This document shows positions 15,645 through 30,415 of a DNA stretch of 30,683 nt, piece by piece (within the stretch, counting starts at the first letter, position 1; each line of letters begins with the position of its first letter). The notes under the pieces are model-generated. The model was given only the letters and a program-made list of their open reading frames with translations. It made no database searches and had not been told where the DNA came from. The position numbers were made by a program, and so were the translations under genes. Source of the stretch: Candidatus Altimarinota bacterium. GTDB lineage: Bacteria > Patescibacteriota > Gracilibacteria > JBDHUY01. The DNA lies in NCBI GenBank assembly GCA_039809385.1, contig JBDHUY010000018.1, forward strand, positions 1 to 30,683. Reading direction: 5' to 3'.

Positions 15645-17273
15645 TTACTTTTTGGTAGGCATTTTCTCGCGTTCAATCGCCGCTTCCAGTACGGCTTTGA
15701 AAAGCGGGTGCGGACGATGCGATCGCGCTGTAAATTCGGGATGAAACTGTGTTCCCAGCATAAAGGGATGTTGCTTTATTTCTACGATCTCCATCAGCTC
15801 GCGGCTGGGTGATGTCCCGGAAAAGAGCATACCGGCTTTTTCCAGTAGCGATTTATAAGCGTTGTTAAATTCGTAGCGATGCCGATGCCGTTCCCACACA
15901 ACTGTCTTTTTGTACGCTCGGTAGGCATGCGAATCTTTGCTGATTCTACATTCCTGAGCACCCAATCGAAGCGTACCGCCCTTGGAGCGGCCCTCGTGCT
16001 GGTCGGGCATGAAATGCACAATCAGATTTTTGGCGCTCGGATCGAATTCCTCCGAGGTCGCATCTTTGATTTTGAGTACATTCCGCGCAAATTCGATCGT
16101 CATGATCTGGGCGCCCAGGCACAATCCCAAATACGGAATTTTCTGCTCACGGGCATAGCGGGCTACCTGAATTTTTCCTTCCACGCCGCGTTTTCCGAAT
16201 CCGCCGGGAACGACAATCGCTTGGCATTGTTTCAGCCGCTTCCATTCTTCTTTATCGCCCTCTTCTATCTTTTCGGTATCGATCCAGTGCAGTACCGGTC
16301 GCCGGTGCAGATAATAACAGGCGGTTTTGATCGCGCGGGTTACGCTTAAATACGCATCTTCGAGCGAGGTGTACTTGCCGGCCAACGCGATGTCCAGCGG
16401 CGGCTTTTCGGTATTGATGAGTTGTACCAGTTTTTTCCAGGGTTTGAGATCCGGTTTTTTGTTCTTCCAGTCAAAGTGTTTGCTGATAATTTCGCCGATA
16501 TGTGCTTTTTCGAAATTGATGGGCACTTCGTAGATGGTTTTGACATTCGGCGCCGGAATCACCGCTTCGGGCAGAACATCGCAATACATGGCTATTTTTT
16601 CGATATGTTCCCGTTCGATTCTACCTTCGGTTCGTGCCACGATAATATCGGGCTGGATGCCGACGCTGCGCAGCAGCATGACCGATTGCTGGGTGGGCTT
16701 TGTTTTTAGTTCTCCGGTTACTTCCATGTAGGGCAAGTATGAAACGTGCACAAACATAACATTCTGCGCCCCTTCTTCCCGGCGCATCTGGCGGGCTGCT
16801 TCCAGAAAATGAGTCCCTTCCATATCGCCGACGGTTCCGCCTACTTCGATGATCATGACGTCGCATTTGCTTTGGGCCGCGCCTTCGCGGATCTTTTCTT
16901 TTACCATATCCGTGATGTGGGGAATCACCTGGATATCCCGTCCCAGATAGTCGCCTTTGCGTTCCCTCTGGATCACATCGTAGTAGATCATGCCCGAGGT
17001 GACGAATGAATAACGGTTCAAGGACTCGTCGATAAAGCGCTCGTAGTGGCCCAAATCCAGATCGGTCTCGGTTCCATCGTCCAGCACAAATACTTCGCCG
17101 TGGCGGAATGGGTTCATAGTACCGGCGTCTATGTTTAAATAACGTTCCAGTTTTTGCATGAACACCTTATACCCTGCCGCTTTCAGGATCGCTCCGATCG
17201 AGGATGCTGTGATCCCTTTTCCGATGCCGGAGAGGACTCCGCCGGTTACAAAGATGTATTTGGTTTGGTGCAT
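15645..17273 (-). CDS. pyrG: CTP synthase
   Basis: KYIFVTGGVLSGIGKG, HGEVFVLDDGTETDLDLGHYERF, KTKPTQ, VPGGFG, GLCLG, RHRHRYE, QFHPEF; start at MHQTKYIF. Confidence 0.98.
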   Translation of the reverse strand: MHQTKYIFVTGGVLSGIGKGITASSIGAILKAAGYKVFMQKLERYLNIDAGTMNPFRHGEVFVLDDGTETDLDLGHYERFIDESLNRYSFVTSGMIYYDVIQRERKGDYLGRDIQVIPHITDMVKEKIREGAAQSKCDVMIIEVGGTVGDMEGTHFLEAARQMRREEGAQNVMFVHVSYLPYMEVTGELKTKPTQQSVMLLRSVGIQPDIIVARTEGRIEREHIEKIAMYCDVLPEAVIPAPNVKTIYEVPINFEKAHIGEIISKHFDWKNKKPDLKPWKKLVQLINTEKPPLDIALAGKYTSLEDAYLSVTRAIKTACYYLHRRPVLHWIDTEKIEEGDKEEWKRLKQCQAIVVPGGFGKRGVEGKIQVARYAREQKIPYLGLCLGAQIMTIEFARNVLKIKDATSEEFDPSAKNLIVHFMPDQHEGRSKGGTLRLGAQECRISKDSHAYRAYKKTVVWERHRHRYEFNNAYKSLLEKAGMLFSGTSPSRELMEIVEIKQHPFMLGTQFHPEFTARSHRPHPLFKAVLEAAIEREKMPTKK

Positions 17274-17404
17274 GGAGAGAGAGGAGTTGGGAGATCGGAG
17301 TCCGGAGTAGGGAGAAATTTCCACTTGATTATAGGCATCCCCGGGACGGGAGTAAAGACAAGTAACGGTATAAATTATGAAGGATGAATTATTAATTATA
17401 AGCA

Positions 17405-17635
17405 GTAGCGGCAGACCCGTGTGTCTGCCCAGGATAAGAACGGTCCTTAGTTTCCCAAGGCTACGGAGGGCAGGCAGTCGTTAGGTACCATGAGAGAAAT
17501 CGAGATTTGTGGTCTTTGTAATAGCTACCCCTGATAAGGCCTGTACTGAGTCGATGGGCTGGCTAGCAATACTGGCTTGTTCCCCCTGATAAGCGCGTTA
17601 GGGGGTTCAGGTTGGCACAGACACTCGGGTCTGCC
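17405..17635. repeat. inverted pair of REP-like palindromes (GTAG-headed)
   Basis: gtagcggcagacccgtgtgtctgccc (17405-30); 17618-35 is the reverse complement of 17410-27 at 17/18 nt. Confidence 0.7.
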
Positions 17636-17827
17636 TCGATTCGTATTAAACTCTTAGTCATCCTTATAAATGATCAATCATAAGTCATTCTGACAACGGA
17701 TCGGAGTTGTAAAAACTGGTAGTCTCGTTTTGCGCTTAGGGCAGGGGATAAGCGGCCATGGAAAAAAACTGACCTTTTTTTTCTATATCGGTACGGTATA
17801 CTGAAAGTGTTCTTATAACTCTTGTTT

Positions 17828-17902
17828 ATGAAATCAACCGTTGTGCCTTCAAAAACTGGCAGTATTGCTTCAGCGAACGGCTTGATTTCTACATTGCTCT
17901 AG
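17828..17902 (+). CDS. putative micropeptide MKSTVVPSKTGSIASANGLISTLL (24 aa)
   Basis: TATACT at 17797-802, U-rich start context (cttgtttATG), followed by a hairpin/T-tract and then the GNAT gene. Confidence 0.5.
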   Translation: MKSTVVPSKTGSIASANGLISTLL

Positions 17903-17914
17903 TCACAGTCTGCC

Positions 17915-17958
17915 AAGAAACGACTTTCTTTGAGAAAAATCGCTTCTTTTGTTTTTTT
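17915..17958 (+). terminator. imperfect hairpin plus T-tract between the peptide and the GNAT gene
   Basis: aagaaacgactttct-ttg-agaaaaatcgcttctt followed by ttgttttttt. Confidence 0.45.
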
Positions 17959-18000
17959 CAAAAAAAATACAAATACCAAATGAGCTGTTAACTCCTATGT

Positions 18001-18960
18001 ATGGGTAGTTCTCTGCGGTTTGAAGCGGTTCGAGATCTCGGGGTGGCCGAGAAACTCTGGAAGTATCTATCCCCGGCCCAGAGTTTGTACGACGATTGGG
18101 GCTTTCGGTTTACGTTTTATAAATATGATCCGGTTGAGATTTGTTTTGTGACGGCCTATGATGAGAATCATCCCGTAGGGTTATTGCCGTTGCAGAAAAA
18201 TAAAGAAGGTTTTTGGGAGTTTTTCGGCGGCGACTATATGGAGGATAACCTGCTGATGCTTTTGCCGGGAGTCCAGATCTCTTTGGAACGCTTTTTGGAA
18301 CATGTTCCGGCATTGCCGGTACGTCTGGAGTGGATGCGTTCTTTCTCTGCTCAAAGCGTTTTTCCTATCGTTCAGGATTATAAATATGTGCTGCCGTTGT
18401 CTTCGTATACGTCGGGGGGCGATTTTTTAGAAAAAGCGTTCGATCACGAGCATCGTTCGAAGATCAAACGGCGTATTAACCGTTTACAGGCCGAGCATCA
18501 AGTGGAGGTCTTCGAGAACCGTATGTCCGATCTGCCGCAGCTTTTCGAGCTGAATAAAAAACATTTCGGGGTGAATTCGAGTTTTTATCAACCGCATCGG
18601 GAGGATATTTTCCGCGAGCTTGCGGCTATTTTTTCGCTTTCTATGATCAGTATCGAGGTGGATGGTTCTTTGGAGGCGGTCTCGTTCTCGATTCTGTACC
18701 GGGGGCGGTATGTGGGGATGAACGGCGGAGTGAATACCGATATCGATTATTTGTCGAAGCTGTTGATGCTGAAGAAGCTGGATCAGGCGATTGCGGCGGG
18801 GGCAACGTTGTACGATGCGCAGCGGGGGGATTACGGATGGAAGAAGCAGTTTATGTTCAACGAAGTTCCGTTGTACAAACATCATGCGACCGTCCCTACG
18901 GTGTCGCGTTTTTACGGTTTTCGTCCCAGAACCGCTGGTGAAATGGCTGTATCTTCATAA
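18001..18960 (+). CDS. GNAT-superfamily protein (Acetyltransf_6/FemAB-like double-GNAT)
   Basis: VGLLPL, RSKIKRRINRL, LEAVSFSILY, LSKLLMLKKLDQAIAAGATLYD..RGDYGWK. Confidence 0.8.
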   Translation: MGSSLRFEAVRDLGVAEKLWKYLSPAQSLYDDWGFRFTFYKYDPVEICFVTAYDENHPVGLLPLQKNKEGFWEFFGGDYMEDNLLMLLPGVQISLERFLEHVPALPVRLEWMRSFSAQSVFPIVQDYKYVLPLSSYTSGGDFLEKAFDHEHRSKIKRRINRLQAEHQVEVFENRMSDLPQLFELNKKHFGVNSSFYQPHREDIFRELAAIFSLSMISIEVDGSLEAVSFSILYRGRYVGMNGGVNTDIDYLSKLLMLKKLDQAIAAGATLYDAQRGDYGWKKQFMFNEVPLYKHHATVPTVSRFYGFRPRTAGEMAVSS

Positions 18961-19013
18961 AAAGCGCTTTGTAATAAAAATCACATGAACTCTCTGGATT
19001 TTCACTTTTTCAA

Positions 19014-19022
19014 TGGTATAAT
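19014..19022 (+). promoter_or_regulatory. extended -10 promoter TGgTATAAT
   Basis: Perfect TGnTATAAT ~35 nt upstream of ATG 19057. Confidence 0.65.
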
Positions 19023-19056
19023 GTATACGTTCCTTTACTTTTTTACCCATTTTTTT

Positions 19057-19104
19057 ATGGTTAGAGGAGAAGGTTGCAAAACCGGAGATGAGAAAAGCCA
19101 TTAA
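19057..19104 (+). CDS. putative micropeptide MVRGEGCKTGDEKSH (15 aa)
   Basis: First ATG well downstream of the extended -10 promoter, U-rich context (ttttttATG), purine-rich coding-like sequence, followed by a perfect palindrome. Confidence 0.5.
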   Translation: MVRGEGCKTGDEKSH

Positions 19105-19117
19105 TCTTGGCTGCTAA

Positions 19118-19153
19118 AGGAAACAGACGTATTGTACAATACGTCTGTTTCCT
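19118..19153. repeat. perfect 36-bp palindrome
   Basis: aggaaacagacgtattgt|acaatacgtctgtttcct. Confidence 0.9.
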
Positions 19154-19178
19154 AAATATTTTAATTTCATAGATTTAT

Positions 19179-19604
19179 ATGTCACCTACACTCCAACAGG
19201 TTGATGCTTACTCAGTTCCCGAGTTTGTAGCCGCAAGAGTGGCTAAGCAATACGATCTTTCTCTTGAATATGCTGCTGATTTGGTACTTGAAGCTAAAAG
19301 GATGTTGTTTGTTAAAATACTATCAGGTCAAGACGTAGCTCCTTCTGCCCGAGTGGATATGGCGTGGCATGAAATGATGCTGTTTACAAGATTCTATAAG
19401 GAATTTTGTGAATTCTTGGGGGGAGGTTTTATCCATCACGATCCTACGCCTCCCGAAAGTGTGGAAGAGTATATGAAAGGTCCTTTCAAAACATTATCTT
19501 TGGCTATGGATGAGGGGGATGAGGAAGGCCCGACCTATACACAGACCAAAGTTAATTATGAAAAATTACTGGGAATAAAACCTAATCCTGAATATTGGCC
19601 ATAA
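19179..19604 (+). CDS. glycine-rich-domain (GRDP/DUF1399-like) family protein, core domain only
   Basis: EAKRML...PSARVDMAWHEMMLFTRFYKEFC.....FIHHDP...Y..T...YEKL.G..P...YWP motif set. Confidence 0.8.
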   Translation: MSPTLQQVDAYSVPEFVAARVAKQYDLSLEYAADLVLEAKRMLFVKILSGQDVAPSARVDMAWHEMMLFTRFYKEFCEFLGGGFIHHDPTPPESVEEYMKGPFKTLSLAMDEGDEEGPTYTQTKVNYEKLLGIKPNPEYWP

Positions 19605-19695
19605 AAAATTGATCAATTTCAGAGAATTTCCGTATGTCTCATTTGCAGTACGGCATGTATTGTTTTATAGTAATGCATGTACTTTACCGTAAGCC

Positions 19696-21522
19696 ATGAA
19701 TTCTCAGGATTTGCAAAAAAGATTTCCGGAAGTTTACAGGGGTCTTTTTTCATATTGTCCGATAGTGCTTTCGGCTCCGATTTGTTTTGCTTGGGTAGCG
19801 CATGCTTCACAAGCGTATAGAGGTTTGGCGATCCGTCAAAAAATCCCAAAGAAAGTTTGGCTTGGAATCAAATTTATCGATACTCCAGGGGTAAGATTCA
19901 AAGATATATCTTGTTATGCTGAAAAAGAGGATAAATTTGTCATCATGTCATTAGAAGGAGCTATTCCAAACCTAAACAATGTACTCTCCTACTTGCTTTT
20001 TTTGTATCCCGAATATCTGGATCAAAAAGGAATCGAAATTTGTGCAATTGCTGAACATCAAATACACAAAAGTACTATTATAATAGATATTTTTCTTGCT
20101 CTCGTGGTACTATCTTTCGAGATGGTCACGTCAAGTCTTTCTCTGGCATTTCTTAATGAATGGGCTAAATCTCGCCCTAATGAACTTTTAAATCAAAGAC
20201 ACTCACAGTTTTTTGATGTTGTTAATCGTATATGGAAGCTAAACTATATCGTAAACAATGCTAGCTGGGGATTTGGCTTTTTAACGTCTTTGGTGACAAC
20301 TTCCTATCCCTTAGTATACAGTCCAAGTATCTCTATGCGAAAATGTGATTTAATATCCCACCATCATCCGAACTTCCAACACTTACCCGATGCCTCTTTG
20401 TGGGTATATGACATGAGAGATTTGTATCCAGATTTGCCCGCCGAGTCATTTTTTCCGATTGATATAGCAACAATATTTTCTGGAAAAAGTCACTCGTCTG
20501 CCGAACTTACGCAGCGTAATCAAAAAAATGATTATAACGTTAACGATTTGTTCAATTCGATAGAAAAGATATTCAACTTGTCCCTGGATAAGAATGGACA
20601 CCTTCCTCGTTTTTATGAAATGTTTGATAAAAATAGGGACGGCGATCCGTATAACCTGACAGACACTGTTGCTATTATTTCGTTGCAATTTTTAGAATCA
20701 TTTTACAAGTTATTTACCCATAGCTTCGATGATCGAGTGATCACTGAGTTTATTAATCTACTTCTTAGGCGACATTCATCTTTAGATTGCCTTGGTAATA
20801 TGTCTTATCGCGTCCGTCAGGTAATCATGCGACTGAATTCCGATCTGTTTTCTTCCCATCCTCATAGTCCGTTTAGCATTTTTTCTTTATTGGATGTTTC
20901 AGTCGGCGGTTATCTGGGATTTGCAGGATTTCCAAATATTCATCGTCAGGCTCTGGAGGAAAGTGTTGCTCATCTCCAAAAGGAATACCCAGAGGTCTCG
21001 CTCGATTATGCCAGCTGGCGGGACGGTTTTTGCTCCGACGGTGTGATTGTCGAGCAGCACTTGGAGGAAGGCATCAAATCTCCGTATCTCAGCAGTTCAA
21101 GCTATGCGGTTGTTTCATATAGCAAAGATTCTCACAGTCAGCGACTGGTGGAAATGAAGGATATTCCCAAGATCGAATCCGCAGGAATTATTCTGCTTAA
21201 TTCGATCAATAATACCATCACGATTTCCGGTACCTCCTTAACCAGCAAAGAACTGCATTCCCAAAAAGCCACCATCCAGCTCCTGCAATCTTTGCTCGAA
21301 GCGAAAGGCCATCGCATTGAAAACACAGCCCTGCCGCGCTCAGCCTATTCCCTCAACAAAAACGACATGACCGGCAAACTGTTACTCCCTTTCAAGAAGC
21401 TGGTTCAGCAGCGTACCGGTAAAACAATCGAACTTCAGGCTACCGGCAGTCTCTCCGAATTCGTCATCGAACTCGTCCTGCCGGATGACTTGGAGATCTT
21501 GATTGTCTCTAAGAACCGTTAG
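19696..21522 (+). CDS. degenerate GHMP-kinase-like domain plus C-terminal winged-helix-like domain protein
   Basis: N-terminal SAPICFAWVAHASQAYRGLAI resembles the GHMP 'SAPG....GEH..YG..AI' start; the C-terminus has a beta-sheet/helix/beta-hairpin pattern like an OmpR-type wHTH. Confidence 0.55.
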   Translation: MNSQDLQKRFPEVYRGLFSYCPIVLSAPICFAWVAHASQAYRGLAIRQKIPKKVWLGIKFIDTPGVRFKDISCYAEKEDKFVIMSLEGAIPNLNNVLSYLLFLYPEYLDQKGIEICAIAEHQIHKSTIIIDIFLALVVLSFEMVTSSLSLAFLNEWAKSRPNELLNQRHSQFFDVVNRIWKLNYIVNNASWGFGFLTSLVTTSYPLVYSPSISMRKCDLISHHHPNFQHLPDASLWVYDMRDLYPDLPAESFFPIDIATIFSGKSHSSAELTQRNQKNDYNVNDLFNSIEKIFNLSLDKNGHLPRFYEMFDKNRDGDPYNLTDTVAIISLQFLESFYKLFTHSFDDRVITEFINLLLRRHSSLDCLGNMSYRVRQVIMRLNSDLFSSHPHSPFSIFSLLDVSVGGYLGFAGFPNIHRQALEESVAHLQKEYPEVSLDYASWRDGFCSDGVIVEQHLEEGIKSPYLSSSSYAVVSYSKDSHSQRLVEMKDIPKIESAGIILLNSINNTITISGTSLTSKELHSQKATIQLLQSLLEAKGHRIENTALPRSAYSLNKNDMTGKLLLPFKKLVQQRTGKTIELQATGSLSEFVIELVLPDDLEILIVSKNR

Positions 21523-22159: not shown

Positions 22160-23953
22160 TTACCCAAACGTAAACGCATAGACCTCCACACCATCCTCGG
22201 TAAATTCCAGGCTGAGCGTATGATTCTCGTTTTTGGGCAGTTTTACCAGCTTGTAGAGACGATCCTCGACCACCGTTACCATGCCGTCTTTCACATCTTC
22301 TCCAGCAATATCCGCGGCAATCGGTTTCCCGTCCAGCAATACTTTTACCTGATTGCCCTGTTTGCTGGAGCGCATCACCAGGTAGACCTCCTGCGACTCG
22401 AAGTTAAATTCGAGTTTGGCTCCTTGCTTTGGCATGGCACGCTGATCGCCGACCAGCCATTTGCCAAGATAAGCAAAATCGTTTTTTGAGAGCGTTTCGG
22501 TCTTGAGCGTAAAATCGGTTTCCTTGTCGGTTGCATAATCTTCTTTCGACTGGAAGCGACTGGAATCAAGCCGTTCGTAGCCGAGATACGTTTCGGGACT
22601 TTGCTGTGTCGTCGGCGTTTTATCCTCAAGATCGACTACACTGTCTTCTACCTGGCTTCCGTTCTCTTCCAGCAGCATCTGGATAAACTTCTCCGATTCT
22701 TCGTATTCGCCTTCGCCGAAGTGGGTACGGCGGATCTTACCGTTTTTATCGATAAAGTACTCTGCCGGCCAGAAACGGTTTTTATAACTCTTCCAGATCA
22801 GGTAATCGTTATCCTGCACTACGGGGTACTCGATTTTATACTGTTCCATCGCTTTACGAACATTGTTCTCGTTCTTTTCGAACTCGAATTCGGGCGTATG
22901 AACCCCGATGATCACAAAGCCTTTGTCTTTGTATTTGTTGTACCACGCGGTGGTGTAGGGGAGGGTACGAATACAGTTGATACAAGTGTAGGTCCAGAAG
23001 TCTACTAACACGACCTTCCCTTTCAATTTGTCCAATGTCAGCGCTTCGCCGTTAAGCCATTTGGTGGCTCCTTCGAAATTCGGGTTCGGAGCTGCCGGGT
23101 AATTTTTAGAATCGTTCATGCTTGAAGTGTCTGAAGAAGTATTTCCCATTTGAGCTTTCACCGTATCCATCGGTTGTCCCATAGGCATATCCTCTATTCC
23201 TCCTCCGGCTAGGCGATTGAGTTCTTGCTGCACGGCACTATTTTCTTCGAATTTCGTCAGTCCGGTACCGTATTGAGGAAATGCCTCAAGTACGTACGCT
23301 TGTAATCTCTTATCGATATCGAAGGCTATTCCTACTGAAACCAGGATCATAAGGACGCCAAAGACCTGGCGGATGCGGGCGGAATTATTAAGCAGTCCGG
23401 GTACTTTTTTGATCAATGCGCGGCCTCCGTACATGATCAGGAGCATGGGCAGAGCCGTTCCGACTGCATATGAAAGAGCGATCAACACCGCTTCGATGGT
23501 CACGCTGCTGGTAGCGGCCAGGGTAATAACACCAGCCAAAATCGGGCCGACACACGGAGTCCAGAGCAGTCCAAGACTCAGACCGATCAGGATACCGCCC
23601 CCAAATCCGGAACGCTGCGCATTTTTTCCCTGCGCGCTAGTAGACATTTTGGAGACAGCATGTTCCAGCCATACCTGCACTTTCGAACTAAACAGAGCGA
23701 TCCCAAACAGAAACAAGGCCGCGATGGCTATGATCCGCAGCGATTCCTGGGAGAGCCCGAAGGCCTTCAGCAACGCGAACGAAAAAACCGTAAAAAAGGT
23801 AAAACTCAAGATAAACCCCAGAATGATCCCTAAGGGGCGTTGTTTCCCGCCCGTCGCGCCGCCCGAGAGGACGATCGGCAGTACCGGTAAAATACAAGGG
23901 GACAGAATCGTAACGACGCCGGCCAGAAAGGCAAAACCGATGAGGACGAACAT
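22160..23953 (-). CDS. dipZ: DipZ-type CcdA/DsbD membrane domain-thioredoxin fusion
   Basis: LSPCILPVLP, WTPCVGPIL, DFWTYTCINC, GVHTPEF, SPETYLGY, YAFTFG. Confidence 0.93.
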   Translation of the reverse strand: MFVLIGFAFLAGVVTILSPCILPVLPIVLSGGATGGKQRPLGIILGFILSFTFFTVFSFALLKAFGLSQESLRIIAIAALFLFGIALFSSKVQVWLEHAVSKMSTSAQGKNAQRSGFGGGILIGLSLGLLWTPCVGPILAGVITLAATSSVTIEAVLIALSYAVGTALPMLLIMYGGRALIKKVPGLLNNSARIRQVFGVLMILVSVGIAFDIDKRLQAYVLEAFPQYGTGLTKFEENSAVQQELNRLAGGGIEDMPMGQPMDTVKAQMGNTSSDTSSMNDSKNYPAAPNPNFEGATKWLNGEALTLDKLKGKVVLVDFWTYTCINCIRTLPYTTAWYNKYKDKGFVIIGVHTPEFEFEKNENNVRKAMEQYKIEYPVVQDNDYLIWKSYKNRFWPAEYFIDKNGKIRRTHFGEGEYEESEKFIQMLLEENGSQVEDSVVDLEDKTPTTQQSPETYLGYERLDSSRFQSKEDYATDKETDFTLKTETLSKNDFAYLGKWLVGDQRAMPKQGAKLEFNFESQEVYLVMRSSKQGNQVKVLLDGKPIAADIAGEDVKDGMVTVVEDRLYKLVKLPKNENHTLSLEFTEDGVEVYAFTFG

Positions 23954-30330: not shown

Positions 30331-30415
30331 GCGGACGTGGCGGAATTGGTATACGCGCACGCTTGAGGTGCGTGTGCCGCAAGGCGTGAGGGTTCAAGTC
30401 CCTCCGTCCGCACCA
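30331..30415 (+). tRNA. tRNA-Leu(GAG), encoded CCA
   Basis: Acceptor gcggacg/cgtccgc, anticodon arm cacgc-ttGAGgt-gcgtg, long variable arm, T arm gaggg-ttcaagt-ccctc, ACCA end. Confidence 0.97.

What the first reader, a model, noticed from the sequence alone, without database searches (positions are those of the whole stretch)
17797..19604. Two tandem 'promoter - KTG micropeptide - hairpin - enzyme' units (GNAT and DUF1399-like): candidate peptide-modification or leader-peptide system
Seen: the same architecture occurs twice. Unit 1 is TATACT, MKSTVVPSKTGSIASANGLISTLL (17828-17902), a hairpin/T-tract and the GNAT gene. Unit 2 is TGgTATAAT, MVRGEGCKTGDEKSH (19057-19104), a 36-bp palindrome and the GRDP/DUF1399-like gene. 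Both tiny ORFs fall below the ORF-track cutoff, have the same U-rich SD-less start context as real genes here, and carry K-T-G at nearly the same position (aa 9-11 and 8-10) using different codons. Known: RiPP precursors are often followed by a stem-loop that sets a high peptide:enzyme ratio, and GNAT/FemAB-like folds acylate or aminoacylate amines. Inference: these are either minimal RiPP-like or signalling peptides modified by the adjacent enzymes (Lys of KTG as acceptor), or attenuator leader peptides.
Basis: partly seen in the sequence, partly recalled or inferred. Interest (0 to 1): 0.78.

Follow-up and report, generated by a model that had tools for sequence, protein, structure and literature searches.

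The report
Cysteine micropeptide gene beside GRDP-like protein
Only the second of the two proposed units holds up: a tiny cysteine-bearing peptide gene, a terminator hairpin and a small uncharacterised protein form a module also seen in related uncultured bacteria, and most relatives of that protein carry a cysteine/glycine-rich tail fused to themselves.

Summary
All the sequence elements sit at the stated coordinates, but the "same architecture twice" idea fails.

**Unit 1 is chance.** This is the 24-aa ORF at 17828-17902 before the GNAT gene.
- In 36 of 50 homologous GNAT loci the gene starts within 15 nt of an upstream same-strand gene. The six of these I scanned were double ATP-grasp ligases or paralogous GNATs.
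- The peptide has no counterpart in 49 loci.
- Its "hairpin" folds no better than shuffled sequence.
- GNAT and the 141-aa protein never co-occur in 90 related loci.
- The shared K-T-G is chance-level.

**Unit 2 is real and conserved.**
- In 9 of 13 non-redundant loci of close homologues of the 141-aa protein, a small ORF with G/S-C-K/S/E-G/T motifs lies upstream. One locus carries SCKTGD, against GCKTGD in the window.
- The ORF ends 56-74 nt before the gene in eight of the nine and overlaps its start in one.
- A stable hairpin follows in all 12 spacers folded.
- The longest pair shows coding-type divergence (pS 0.61, pN 0.28).

**The protein.** It belongs to the uncharacterised PF27765 (UCP032817-like) family and is linked by transitivity to GRDP/DUF1399. 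In 87 of 150 family representatives a Cys-rich tail, usually Gly-rich too, is fused at the C-terminus. The stand-alone clade has no such tail. The conserved residue is Cys, not Lys. The function (thiol or metal chemistry on the peptide) is inferred, not shown.

The parts
19014..19022 (+). Extended -10-like element TGGTATAAT. It is a candidate promoter of the small ORF and would start transcription about 27 nt before the ATG.
   Evidence: Read from the sequence. The two-hexamer scan does not report it, and there is no good -35. Canonical TTGACA/TTGACT + 17 nt + TACAAT promoters precede the small ORFs of L065 and L069, and promoter-like boxes precede others.
19057..19104 (+). Small ORF, 15 aa, MVRGEGCKTGDEKSH. 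It is the shortest member seen of a family of Gly/Cys-motif micropeptide genes. An in-frame ATG at 18985 would give 39 aa, but that start lies upstream of the promoter-like element and its extra part resembles nothing in the other loci.
   Evidence: Searches show the ORF. One search shows the counterparts in other loci, and one search gives their coordinates and sequences. One search finds the motif in 9 of 13 loci on the + strand and 0 of 13 on the - strand. One search shows CKTGD shared with L055.
19118..19153 (+). Perfect 36-nt palindrome forming a 16-bp hairpin with a 4-nt loop, followed by AAATATTTTA. It looks like an intrinsic terminator. It begins 13 nt after the small ORF's stop and ends 25 nt before the 141-aa gene.
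   Evidence: An equivalent hairpin is present in all 12 spacers folded, with z <= -3.5 in 11 of them. The hairpin sequences are not conserved between loci, but the structure is.
19179..19604 (+). 141-aa protein of the PF27765 'UCP032817-like' family, a distant relative of GRDP-like/DUF1399. It is helical. The invariant residues include D60, W63, H64, E65, H87, P89, Y120 and T123.
   Evidence: The AF2 model has pLDDT 83.9. No PDB fold match was found.
17828..17902 (+). 24-aa ORF of 'unit 1'. I judge it a chance ORF.
18001..18960 (+). GNAT (Acetyltransf_6, CelD/FemAB-like) gene. It is unrelated to the peptide module. Elsewhere it lies directly behind a double ATP-grasp ligase (an L-amino-acid-ligase-type half plus a D-Ala-D-Ala-ligase-type half) or a paralogous GNAT.

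Best explanation
Positions 19014-19604 hold a two-gene module. A promoter drives a very small gene whose product, MVRGEGCKTGDEKSH, carries one copy of a Gly/Ser-Cys-Lys/Ser/Glu-Gly/Thr motif. A strong hairpin stops most transcripts. The 141-aa PF27765/GRDP-like protein gene follows 25 nt later, so its message most likely arises by read-through, which would make peptide exceed protein.

The peptide is the free-standing counterpart of the Cys-rich (usually also Gly-rich) tail that most members of this protein family carry fused to their own C-terminus. The helical domain, with its invariant Asp/Trp-His-Glu and His-His cluster, therefore most likely binds the Cys-bearing segment and acts on it. 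Candidate actions are thiol or metal chemistry, or maturation of the peptide.

What is shown: the conserved arrangement, coding-type constraint in one long pair, and the split between fused and separate forms. What is inferred: binding, the chemistry, and the read-through stoichiometry.

The upstream 'unit 1' is a chance ORF before an unrelated GNAT gene. The shared K-T-G has no meaning.
For: **Conserved arrangement**
- Close homologues of the 141-aa protein came from metagenome contigs. Redundant or truncated loci L056, L059, L063, L064, L068 and L074 were dropped.
- 9 of the 13 remaining non-redundant loci have an upstream + strand ORF with [GSAK]C[KSE][GT]. Six have it two or more times. 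It occurs in 0 of 13 on the - strand. In 500 dinucleotide shuffles a mean of 0.008 loci had two or more hits.
- The ORF's stop lies 56-74 nt before the gene start in 8 of those 9 loci and overlaps the start in L065. In the window the distance is 74 nt.
- All 12 inter-ORF spacers folded contain a stable hairpin, mostly flanked by an A-run and a T-run.

**Coding-type constraint**
- L054 against L055: 67 aligned codons, pS 0.61 against pN 0.28.
- In a frame-blind nucleotide alignment of the same pair, mismatches fall 13/13/23 by codon position.

**Match to the window's peptide**
- The window's GCKTGD matches SCKTGD in L055.

**Fused versus separate forms**
- All 19 close-clade loci have 0 Cys in the last 40 aa.
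- Of 43 more distant homologues with a complete 3' end, 28 have >=2 Cys and 38 have >=1 Cys in the last 40 aa, and 0 have an upstream motif ORF.
- Of the 150 best family representatives, 87 have >=3 Cys in the last 40 aa, and 73 of those also have >=10 Gly.
- The alignment shows the tails beginning a few residues after the YWP end at which the window's clade stops.

**No other conserved partner**
- No other gene is shared among the 13 loci and the window.
- The family is large, with 7190 representatives at E <= 1e-3.
Against: - The window's peptide has one motif copy and is only 15 aa. By itself it is near chance: the genome has about 1.5e-4 motif hits per six-frame codon (535 stop-to-stop frames with a hit), which is roughly 1-2% for the ~100 codon positions before the hairpin.
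- 4 of 13 loci lack a Cys-motif ORF. L060 has none. L062, L066 and L067 have acidic or Lys-rich low-complexity ORFs without Cys.
- The motif was defined after seeing the data.
- The pN/pS values for short pairs come from alignments chosen by amino-acid similarity.
- The peptides match no Pfam or NCBIfam model. A database search with the L055 peptide found only itself.
- No expression data cover the ORF.
- The protein's fold matches nothing solved, so no chemistry can be read from structure.
- In a fused relative the tail is modelled as disordered, with pLDDT about 47.
- -10-like boxes 6-7 nt before the protein's ATG in L054, L055 and L057 would allow an own, leaderless transcript instead of read-through.
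Confidence: 0.62

Rival explanations
1. Leader-peptide attenuator. The small ORF is translated only to sense something (for example Cys-tRNA supply or ribosome pace), and by ribosome position it decides whether the hairpin terminates transcription before the 141-aa gene. The peptide itself has no function.
For: - The layout of ORF, 13-20 nt spacer, terminator-like hairpin and then gene fits attenuation.
- A ribosome at the stop codon would reach the 5' arm of the hairpin.
- Three loci have ORFs without Cys but keep the hairpin. So the common denominator could be 'any translated ORF plus terminator'.
Against: - Relatives carry the same kind of Cys/Gly segment fused to the protein, where it cannot be a leader.
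- The flanking Gly/Ser/Lys residues recur, not just Cys codons.
- The window has one Cys codon, not a run.
- No alternative antiterminator pairing stands out in the fold.
- The downstream gene is not a known amino-acid biosynthesis gene.
Confidence: 0.15
2. The window's 15-aa ORF is a chance or decayed ORF. Here the hairpin simply terminates the GNAT transcript, and the 141-aa protein works alone. The peptide family exists in other lineages but not in this genome.
For: - It has a single motif copy and is the shortest ORF of the set.
- No terminator lies between the GNAT stop (18960) and the hairpin, so the hairpin could serve the GNAT gene.
- No second copy of such a peptide is seen in the genome.
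- There is no RNA evidence.
Against: - It has the same position, spacing and hairpin as in the other loci.
- It shares a CKTGD match with L055.
- An extended -10 lies 35 nt before its ATG.
- The stand-alone clade has no Cys tail of its own.
Confidence: 0.18
3. One reading: two parallel peptide-enzyme units (GNAT and the DUF1399-like protein), each modifying the Lys of a K-T-G peptide.
For: Both small ORFs exist and share K-T-G at a similar position.
Against: - In 36 of 50 GNAT loci the gene abuts an upstream gene within 15 nt. The largest upstream gaps (218 nt) belong to the two most distant relatives, L051 and L052.
- The best similarity of peptide 1 to anything upstream in 49 loci scores 25. 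Shuffled peptides give a mean of 28.5, and 185 of 200 shuffles score as well or better.
- There is no structure beyond chance after peptide 1.
- The two enzymes never co-occur.
- The K and T positions vary in the real family.
- The GNAT was found in 0 of 40 related genomes searched, so it is a sporadic gene here.
Confidence: 0.03

Closest known systems
Buf_EGKCG / oxazolin precursors, modified by MNIO (DUF692) enzymes. I read passages of PMC12452194.
   Same: Both are short or repetitive peptides whose repeated unit is a Cys flanked by Gly, Lys and Glu. EGKCG compares with KCEG, GKCKG, GKCTG and GCKTG here. In that paper the Cys residues are the proposed targets and the products bind copper.
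   Different: - Those precursors carry Sec signal peptides and sit next to MNIO and DUF2063 genes.
- The peptides here show no N-terminal hydrophobic signal on reading.
- No MNIO gene was found in this 95%-complete genome.
- The partner protein belongs to another, uncharacterised family.
- The paper's own HMM was not available. Pfam and NCBIfam scans of 9 peptides gave no meaningful match.
TIGR04222 'near_uncomplex' membrane proteins with C-terminal Ser/Gly/Cys-rich tails
   Same: Representatives of the window protein's family (P0056, P0059) carry the same N-terminal domain, then the TIGR04222 membrane domain (E 2.7e-44 and 4.4e-39), then a GGCGGC-type tail. PMC12452194 proposes that the tail is modified and that the N-terminal part may take part in its biogenesis.
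   Different: The window's protein has no membrane domain and no tail. The Cys segment is a separate upstream gene. A third of the genomes with TIGR04222 genes lack MNIO according to that paper, so the modifying agent is unknown there too.
Plant GRDP proteins (DUF1399 / PF07173 plus a glycine-rich domain). I saw only the search listing and abstracts.
   Same: Both are distantly related domains with a WH.H ... HH/HD signature, paired with a Gly-rich low-complexity segment. More distant relatives of the window protein reach the PF07173 cut-off: L106 scores 28.1 bits against a cut-off of 22.7, and P0043 scores 46.6 bits.
   Different: The window protein itself does not hit PF07173. The plant proteins are multi-domain, and only stress and developmental phenotypes are reported. 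No biochemical function is known for either.
RiPP operons with a stem-loop between the precursor and enzyme genes, for example lanthipeptide clusters. This comparison is recalled, not taken from any call.
   Same: Both have a small peptide gene, an attenuating hairpin and then the gene of the protein that handles the peptide.
   Different: There is no known RiPP enzyme family, no recognisable leader/core split in the 15-aa peptide, and no protease, exporter or immunity gene conserved nearby. An ABC exporter lies nearby in only 2 of 13 loci.
Leader-peptide transcription attenuators of the trp or his type. This comparison is recalled, not taken from any call.
   Same: A short ORF is followed closely by a terminator hairpin before the regulated gene.
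   Different: There is no run of regulatory codons and no evident antiterminator. The peptide's sequence type recurs as a fused protein tail.

Membership tests
PF27765 UCP032817-like (141-aa protein) | Match to the family model | tested here: met
   The precomputed Pfam label PF27765.1 is on the window's protein and on all 9 close homologues. In the Atlas, the nearest clusters carry PF27765 on 78-91% of their members. The local Pfam copy lacks this model, so I ran no scan of my own.
GRDP-like / DUF1399 (PF07173) | Match of the protein to the PF07173 model | tested here: not met
   There is no Pfam hit at E <= 0.1 for the protein, and none at E <= 10 for 10 family members.
GRDP-like / DUF1399 (PF07173) | Homology by transitivity through intermediate sequences | tested here: met
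   Sequences retrieved with the window family's profile hit PF07173: L106 at 28.1 bits (cut-off 22.7), P0043 at 46.6 bits, and L113, L101 and P0047 below the cut-off. One Atlas cluster carries both PF27765 (78% of members) and PF07173 (10%).
RiPP precursor-enzyme pair | A short precursor gene next to the gene of a protein that acts on it, conserved across loci | tested here: met
   Adjacency is conserved in 9 of 13 loci.
RiPP precursor-enzyme pair | The partner belongs to a known peptide-modifying enzyme family or has a recognisable RRE | tested here: not met
   The partner has no Pfam or NCBIfam function. Foldseek and VIA-align found no solved-fold match for two models, with best Z of 3.8 and 4.7. 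Those absences do not exclude a distant relation.
RiPP precursor-enzyme pair | A demonstrated post-translational modification | not testable with these tools
   This needs co-expression and mass spectrometry.
Buf_EGKCG / oxazolin (MNIO substrates) | An MNIO (PF05114) gene in the cluster or genome | tested here: not met
   There are 0 matches in the window's own genome, which is 95.3% complete. The control genome Caulobacter was detected.
Buf_EGKCG / oxazolin (MNIO substrates) | A Sec signal peptide on the precursor | tested here: not met
   On reading the 10 peptide sequences, none begins with a basic-then-hydrophobic stretch. I ran no signal-peptide predictor.
Buf_EGKCG / oxazolin (MNIO substrates) | EGKCG repeats or a match to the family HMM | tested here: inconclusive
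   Similar but not identical motifs are present. The authors' HMM is not in the libraries. NCBIfam gave no hit, and Pfam gave only one meaningless hit (E 2.5).
Leader-peptide attenuator | A short ORF followed by a terminator before the gene | tested here: met
Leader-peptide attenuator | A run of regulatory codons and an alternative antiterminator | tested here: not met
   The window's ORF has one Cys codon. The minimum-free-energy and centroid folds show the terminator alone. I did no dedicated search for alternative pairings.
TIGR04222 membrane proteins | The TIGR04222 membrane domain | tested here: not met
   The window's protein has no NCBIfam hit. The domain is present in the relatives P0056 and P0059.
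Acetyltransf_6 (CelD/FemAB-like GNAT), gene 18001-18960 | Match to PF13480 above its cut-off | tested here: met
   60.4 bits against a cut-off of 22, E 2.8e-16.

The most novel reading that the evidence does not exclude
The PF27765/GRDP-like helical domain is a previously unrecognised handler of Cys/Gly-rich segments. It could be an enzyme, or a metal or redox partner.

It would act in cis on the tails fused to thousands of bacterial proteins, including the TIGR04222 membrane proteins. By extension this may include the Gly-rich domain of plant GRDPs. In a clade of small-genome uncultured bacteria it would act in trans on ribosomal micropeptides as short as 15 aa.

The window would then hold the minimal form of a new peptide-maturation or metal-peptide system that does not depend on MNIO enzymes.
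Probability: 0.3. Interest if true: 0.85.

Novelty: new variant of a known kind. Interest (0 to 1): 0.6.

Why it matters
The 141-aa protein's family is large (7190 cluster representatives at E <= 1e-3). I could not find it in print. Searches for UCP032817, PIRSF032817, IPR017001 and PF27765 found no paper holding those terms. The DUF1399 papers listed appear to concern plants and fungi.

The split form found here separates the domain from its Cys-bearing segment into two small genes. That turns the question of what this domain does with its Cys/Gly tail into a simple two-component experiment: a 15-79-aa peptide plus a 120-141-aa soluble protein.

It also bears on the open question raised in PMC12452194 about how the Cys-rich tails of TIGR04222 proteins are handled in genomes without MNIO enzymes.

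For annotation, it shows that a 15-aa gene far below ORF-calling cut-offs can be recognised by context.

Tried and rejected
**Complex prediction.** I submitted the L057 protein (30-row alignment) with its 57-aa peptide. The verdict was "no answer": score 0.00 in both runs, and the controls were not folded. This is evidence neither for nor against binding.

**Public sequencing runs.** Ten runs hold parts of 17700-19800. Four were laid.
- Only low-depth contigs identical to the window were found, with no variants.
- The one RNA-library contig covers 18265-18416, inside the GNAT gene.
- This says nothing about the small ORFs or about transcript ends.

**Database search with the L055 peptide.** It found only its own cluster.

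**Family scans.**
- Rfam at gathering thresholds found only a tRNA at 30331. Rfam at E <= 1 on 17300-19720 gave one weak hit to fungal U3, 22.4 bits against a gathering score of 95, which I judge spurious.
- NCBIfam found nothing for the 141-aa protein or the GNAT.
- A PDB sequence search with the family profile gave one marginal aminotransferase hit (E 0.009), which I judge spurious. The same search for the GNAT family found nothing at E <= 0.001.

**Fold searches.** Foldseek found no match at E <= 0.001 for either model. The best VIA-align Z was 3.8 and 4.7. This does not show that the fold is new.

**Tail docking.** The AF2 model of the fused relative P0102 leaves the Cys tail disordered, at pLDDT about 47, so it gives no docking hint.

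**Further peptides in this genome.** Ten stop-to-stop frames have two or more motif hits, and none looks like the family.

**Remnant of the ATP-grasp partner near the GNAT.** tblastn finds only a Ddl-like gene on contig C1 and a weak hit on C9. Nothing is found in the window.

- Supplements of PMC12452194 were not seen. Its Tables S1-S4 and Figs S2-S3 may describe the N-terminal domain of TIGR04222 proteins.

**Failed scripts.** Searches were scripts of mine that failed or gave a trivial alignment. They were redone.
Full report
**What is in the window**

- The neighbourhood runs: CTP synthase (15645-17324, - strand), a 675-nt gap, the GNAT gene 18001-18960 (Acetyltransf_6, E 2.8e-16), a 141-aa gene 19179-19604, then a 608-aa gene 19696-21522 with no family.
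- The genome is 1.87 Mb in 26 contigs. Its relatives are small (0.7-2 Mb) uncultured bacteria.
- 20 of 21 larger ORFs in the window lack a Shine-Dalgarno-like motif. The SD-less start context of the two small ORFs is true but uninformative.

**Unit 1 does not survive comparison**

- The GNAT was found in 0 of 40 related genomes searched. It has relatives at 30-39% identity in other uncultured bacteria.
- I examined 51 homologous loci from species genomes. A start could be set in 50.
  - In 36 of the 50, a same-strand ORF of 80 aa or more ends within 15 nt of the GNAT start.
  - In 7 more the gap is 25-56 nt.
  - The other 7 are: one locus with no upstream sequence; gaps of 92 and 129 nt behind opposite-strand ORFs; a 28-nt gap behind an opposite-strand ORF; one overlapping opposite-strand ORF; and 218 nt in the two most distant relatives.
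- Six of the upstream genes were scanned. Three are ~800-aa double ATP-grasp proteins (an L-amino-acid-ligase-type half plus a D-Ala-D-Ala-ligase-type half). Three are paralogous Acetyltransf_6 proteins.
- So there is normally no room for a leader ORF. In the window's genome only a Ddl-like match exists elsewhere (contig C1), so this GNAT is an orphan of its usual partner.
- The unit-1 peptide has no counterpart in any frame of the 300 nt upstream in 49 loci. Its best score is 25. Shuffled peptides give a mean of 28.5, and 185 of 200 shuffles do as well or better.
- The segment after the ORF folds no better than shuffles (z -0.6).
- The shared K-T-G occurs by chance in 0.8% of random pairs of short ORFs from this genome. 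A window with dozens of such ORFs offers hundreds of pairs.
- GNAT, the 141-aa protein and the 608-aa protein never co-occur in the 51 + 39 loci fetched.

**Unit 2 is a conserved module**

*The protein's close relatives.* The 141-aa protein has nine close relatives (46-78% identity). A pattern scan of metagenome contigs returned 39 loci. In the close clade the gene stands alone, with variable neighbours and 200-450 nt of upstream spacer.

*The upstream ORFs.* Translating the upstream DNA showed small ORFs rich in a recurring unit:

| Locus | Peptide, or the part of it shown |
|---|---|
| L053 | ...AKCEGAKCEGKK... |
| L054 | 72 aa with six units |
| L055 | 79 aa including SCKTGD, ACKTAD, TCKTA |
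| L057 | ...ACKGEGKCKGGSCKGEGGSCKGNA |
| L058 | ...SCSGGSCSGK |
| L061 | ...DAKCKGGECTGSK |
| L065 | ...DAKCEGGKCTGNAASC... |
| L069 | ...GGSCEGGSCEGGSCDG... |
| L091 | MLKLNDGGSCKGSGSCGGGAK |

The window's MVRGEGCKTGDEKSH is the shortest version.

*Statistics.* I first dropped redundant or truncated loci (L056 = L055, L059 = L058, L068 = L067; L063, L064 and L074 have under 50 nt upstream).
- 9 of the 13 remaining loci carry [GSAK]C[KSE][GT] in a + strand frame. Six carry it at least twice.
- None of the 13 carries it on the - strand.
- Dinucleotide shuffles give a mean of 0.008 loci with two or more hits.
- The motif was defined after seeing the data, so the exact figure should not be over-read. 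The contrast is nevertheless large.

*Geometry.* The ORF's stop lies 56-74 nt before the protein's start in eight loci (74 nt in the window) and overlaps it in L065.

*Hairpins.* Every one of the 12 spacers folded contains a stable hairpin, with z <= -3.5 in 11. L053 has z -1.6. Most are flanked by an A-run and a T-run. The hairpin sequences differ between loci, which fits a terminator rather than a protein-binding operator. The window's 36-nt perfect palindrome at 19118-19153 is one of them.

*Promoters.* Canonical -35/-10 promoters precede the ORFs of L065 and L069, and promoter-like boxes precede others.

*Exceptions.* Four loci do not fit. L060 has nothing. L062, L066 and L067 have low-complexity acidic or Lys-rich ORFs without Cys, though the last three keep the hairpin.

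**The small ORFs look translated**

- L054 and L055 align over 67 codons with 40 identical residues, pS 0.61 and pN 0.28.
- In a nucleotide alignment made without regard to frame, mismatches fall 13, 13 and 23 on codon positions 1, 2 and 3.
- L057 and L065 also share an N-terminal T.EEL..M..EDLV stretch.
- The short pairwise values are biased by how the alignments were chosen, and I give them little weight.

**The decisive context: fused tails**

- A profile search of 1.84 billion representatives finds 7190 family members at E <= 1e-3. Only 9 reach E <= 1e-30.
- Of the best 150, 87 have three or more Cys in the last 40 residues, and 73 of these also have ten or more Gly. A typical ending is ...GGCGGGCGGCGGGGD.
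- Many are ~485-aa proteins with the TIGR04222 membrane domain between the N-terminal domain and the tail.
- Among the loci in hand there is a clean split.
  - All 19 close-clade loci have no Cys in the last 40 residues.
  - Of 43 more distant homologues with a complete 3' end, 28 have two or more Cys and 38 have at least one, and none has an upstream motif ORF.
- An alignment shows the short fused forms continuing a few residues past the YWP end, where the window's clade stops, into C..C-rich tails. An example is ...KYWPKKNNGSECEGGNCGLRCSNCNN.
- The Cys-bearing segment is therefore either part of the protein or a separate gene beside it. This is the classical signature of a functional link.
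- The order differs (the tail is C-terminal, the gene is upstream), so this is not a simple gene fission.

**What the protein is**

- It carries the precomputed label PF27765, named UCP032817-like. The local Pfam copy lacks that model and gives no hit.
- More distant members reach PF07173 GRDP-like/DUF1399.
- AF2 models are confident: pLDDT 83.9 for the window's protein and 86.1 for a fused relative. They are all-helical.
- Neither Foldseek nor VIA-align finds a convincing solved relative.
- The invariant residues cluster in D..WHE and HH(D)P. This suggests a metal or acid-base site, but that is inference.
- No MNIO enzyme, the known modifier of EGKCG-type peptides, is encoded in this genome.
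- No other gene is shared among the loci.
- A DsbD/thioredoxin-like protein lies nearby in the window (22160-23953, - strand) and directly before the small ORF in L057. ABC exporters lie near in L058 and L067. These are too few to count as evidence.

**Literature**

- PMC12452194 (passages read) describes EGKCG-repeat precursors and TIGR04222 tails as proven or putative MNIO substrates. It notes that a third of genomes with TIGR04222 genes lack MNIO genes.
- The DUF1399 papers listed appear to concern plants and fungi (listing and abstracts only).
- No paper holds UCP032817, PIRSF032817, IPR017001 or PF27765.

**Mechanism proposed**

1. Transcription starts at the extended -10 (19014-19022).
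2. The 15-aa peptide is translated from an SD-less start.
3. Most transcripts end at the hairpin.
4. Read-through yields the protein.
5. The protein binds the Cys segment and acts on it.

The last three steps are inferred. The attenuator reading and the "decayed ORF in this genome" reading remain open at roughly 15% and 18%.

**Verdict**

One of the two units is an artefact. The other is a real, conserved micropeptide-protein module of unknown chemistry, tied to a large uncharacterised family.

Noticed in passing
window 19696-21522 (+): The 608-aa protein downstream has no Pfam family. tblastn finds further matches at 27-43% identity in seven places on contigs C1, C2, C3 and C6 of the same 1.87-Mb genome, one of them partial. 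It is not found next to homologues of the 141-aa protein in 39 loci.
   Followed up: partly
window 17369-17397, 17403-17430, 17579-17611: Three short motifs in the 675-nt gap between the CTP synthase and GNAT genes recur at about 6-9 other places each in the genome. Two of them are hairpins: GGCAGAC...GTCTGCC and CCCCCT...AGGGGG. They look like dispersed REP-like elements. Nothing similar was found in 30 related genomes searched.
   Followed up: partly
L002-L052 (GNAT homologue loci): The GNAT family usually lies directly behind a ~800-aa fusion of an L-amino-acid-ligase-type ATP-grasp with a D-Ala-D-Ala-ligase-type ATP-grasp, or behind a second Acetyltransf_6 gene. This suggests a peptide or peptidoglycan-branch synthesis cluster. 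The window's genome has only the Ddl-like half, on another contig.
   Followed up: partly
L054, L055, L057 (spacer before the protein gene): -10-like hexamers (TACAAT, TAGAAT, TATAGT) lie 6-7 nt before the ATG of the protein gene, just after the hairpin. This would fit a leaderless transcript of the protein's own. The window has no clear equivalent.
   Followed up: no
window 22160-23953 (-) and L057:942-2117: A thiol-disulfide oxidoreductase (DsbD-type membrane part and/or AhpC/TlpA-like thioredoxin plus the Thioredoxin_10 domain) lies near the module in 2 of 14 loci. In L057 it ends 60 nt before the small ORF. This may be a coincidence.
   Followed up: partly
L062:820-918, L066:1350-1514, L067:3722-3841: Three close-clade loci have upstream ORFs without Cys but with other repeats: MIGEQKKP three times, PATD-type repeats, and an acidic Ala/Pro/Glu-rich peptide. 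L062 and L066 keep the hairpin directly after the ORF. In L067 the hairpin lies in a longer 150-nt spacer. L058 combines such an acidic N-terminal part with C-terminal SCSG units, so these ORFs may be leader-like parts that have lost the Cys segment.
   Followed up: no
window 18985-19104 (+): An in-frame ATG 72 nt upstream would extend the small ORF to 39 aa with a strongly hydrophobic, aromatic N-terminal part (FHFFNGIMYTFLYFFTHFF). If transcribed from the GNAT gene, this would resemble a membrane anchor followed by the Cys motif. No other locus shows this.
   Followed up: no
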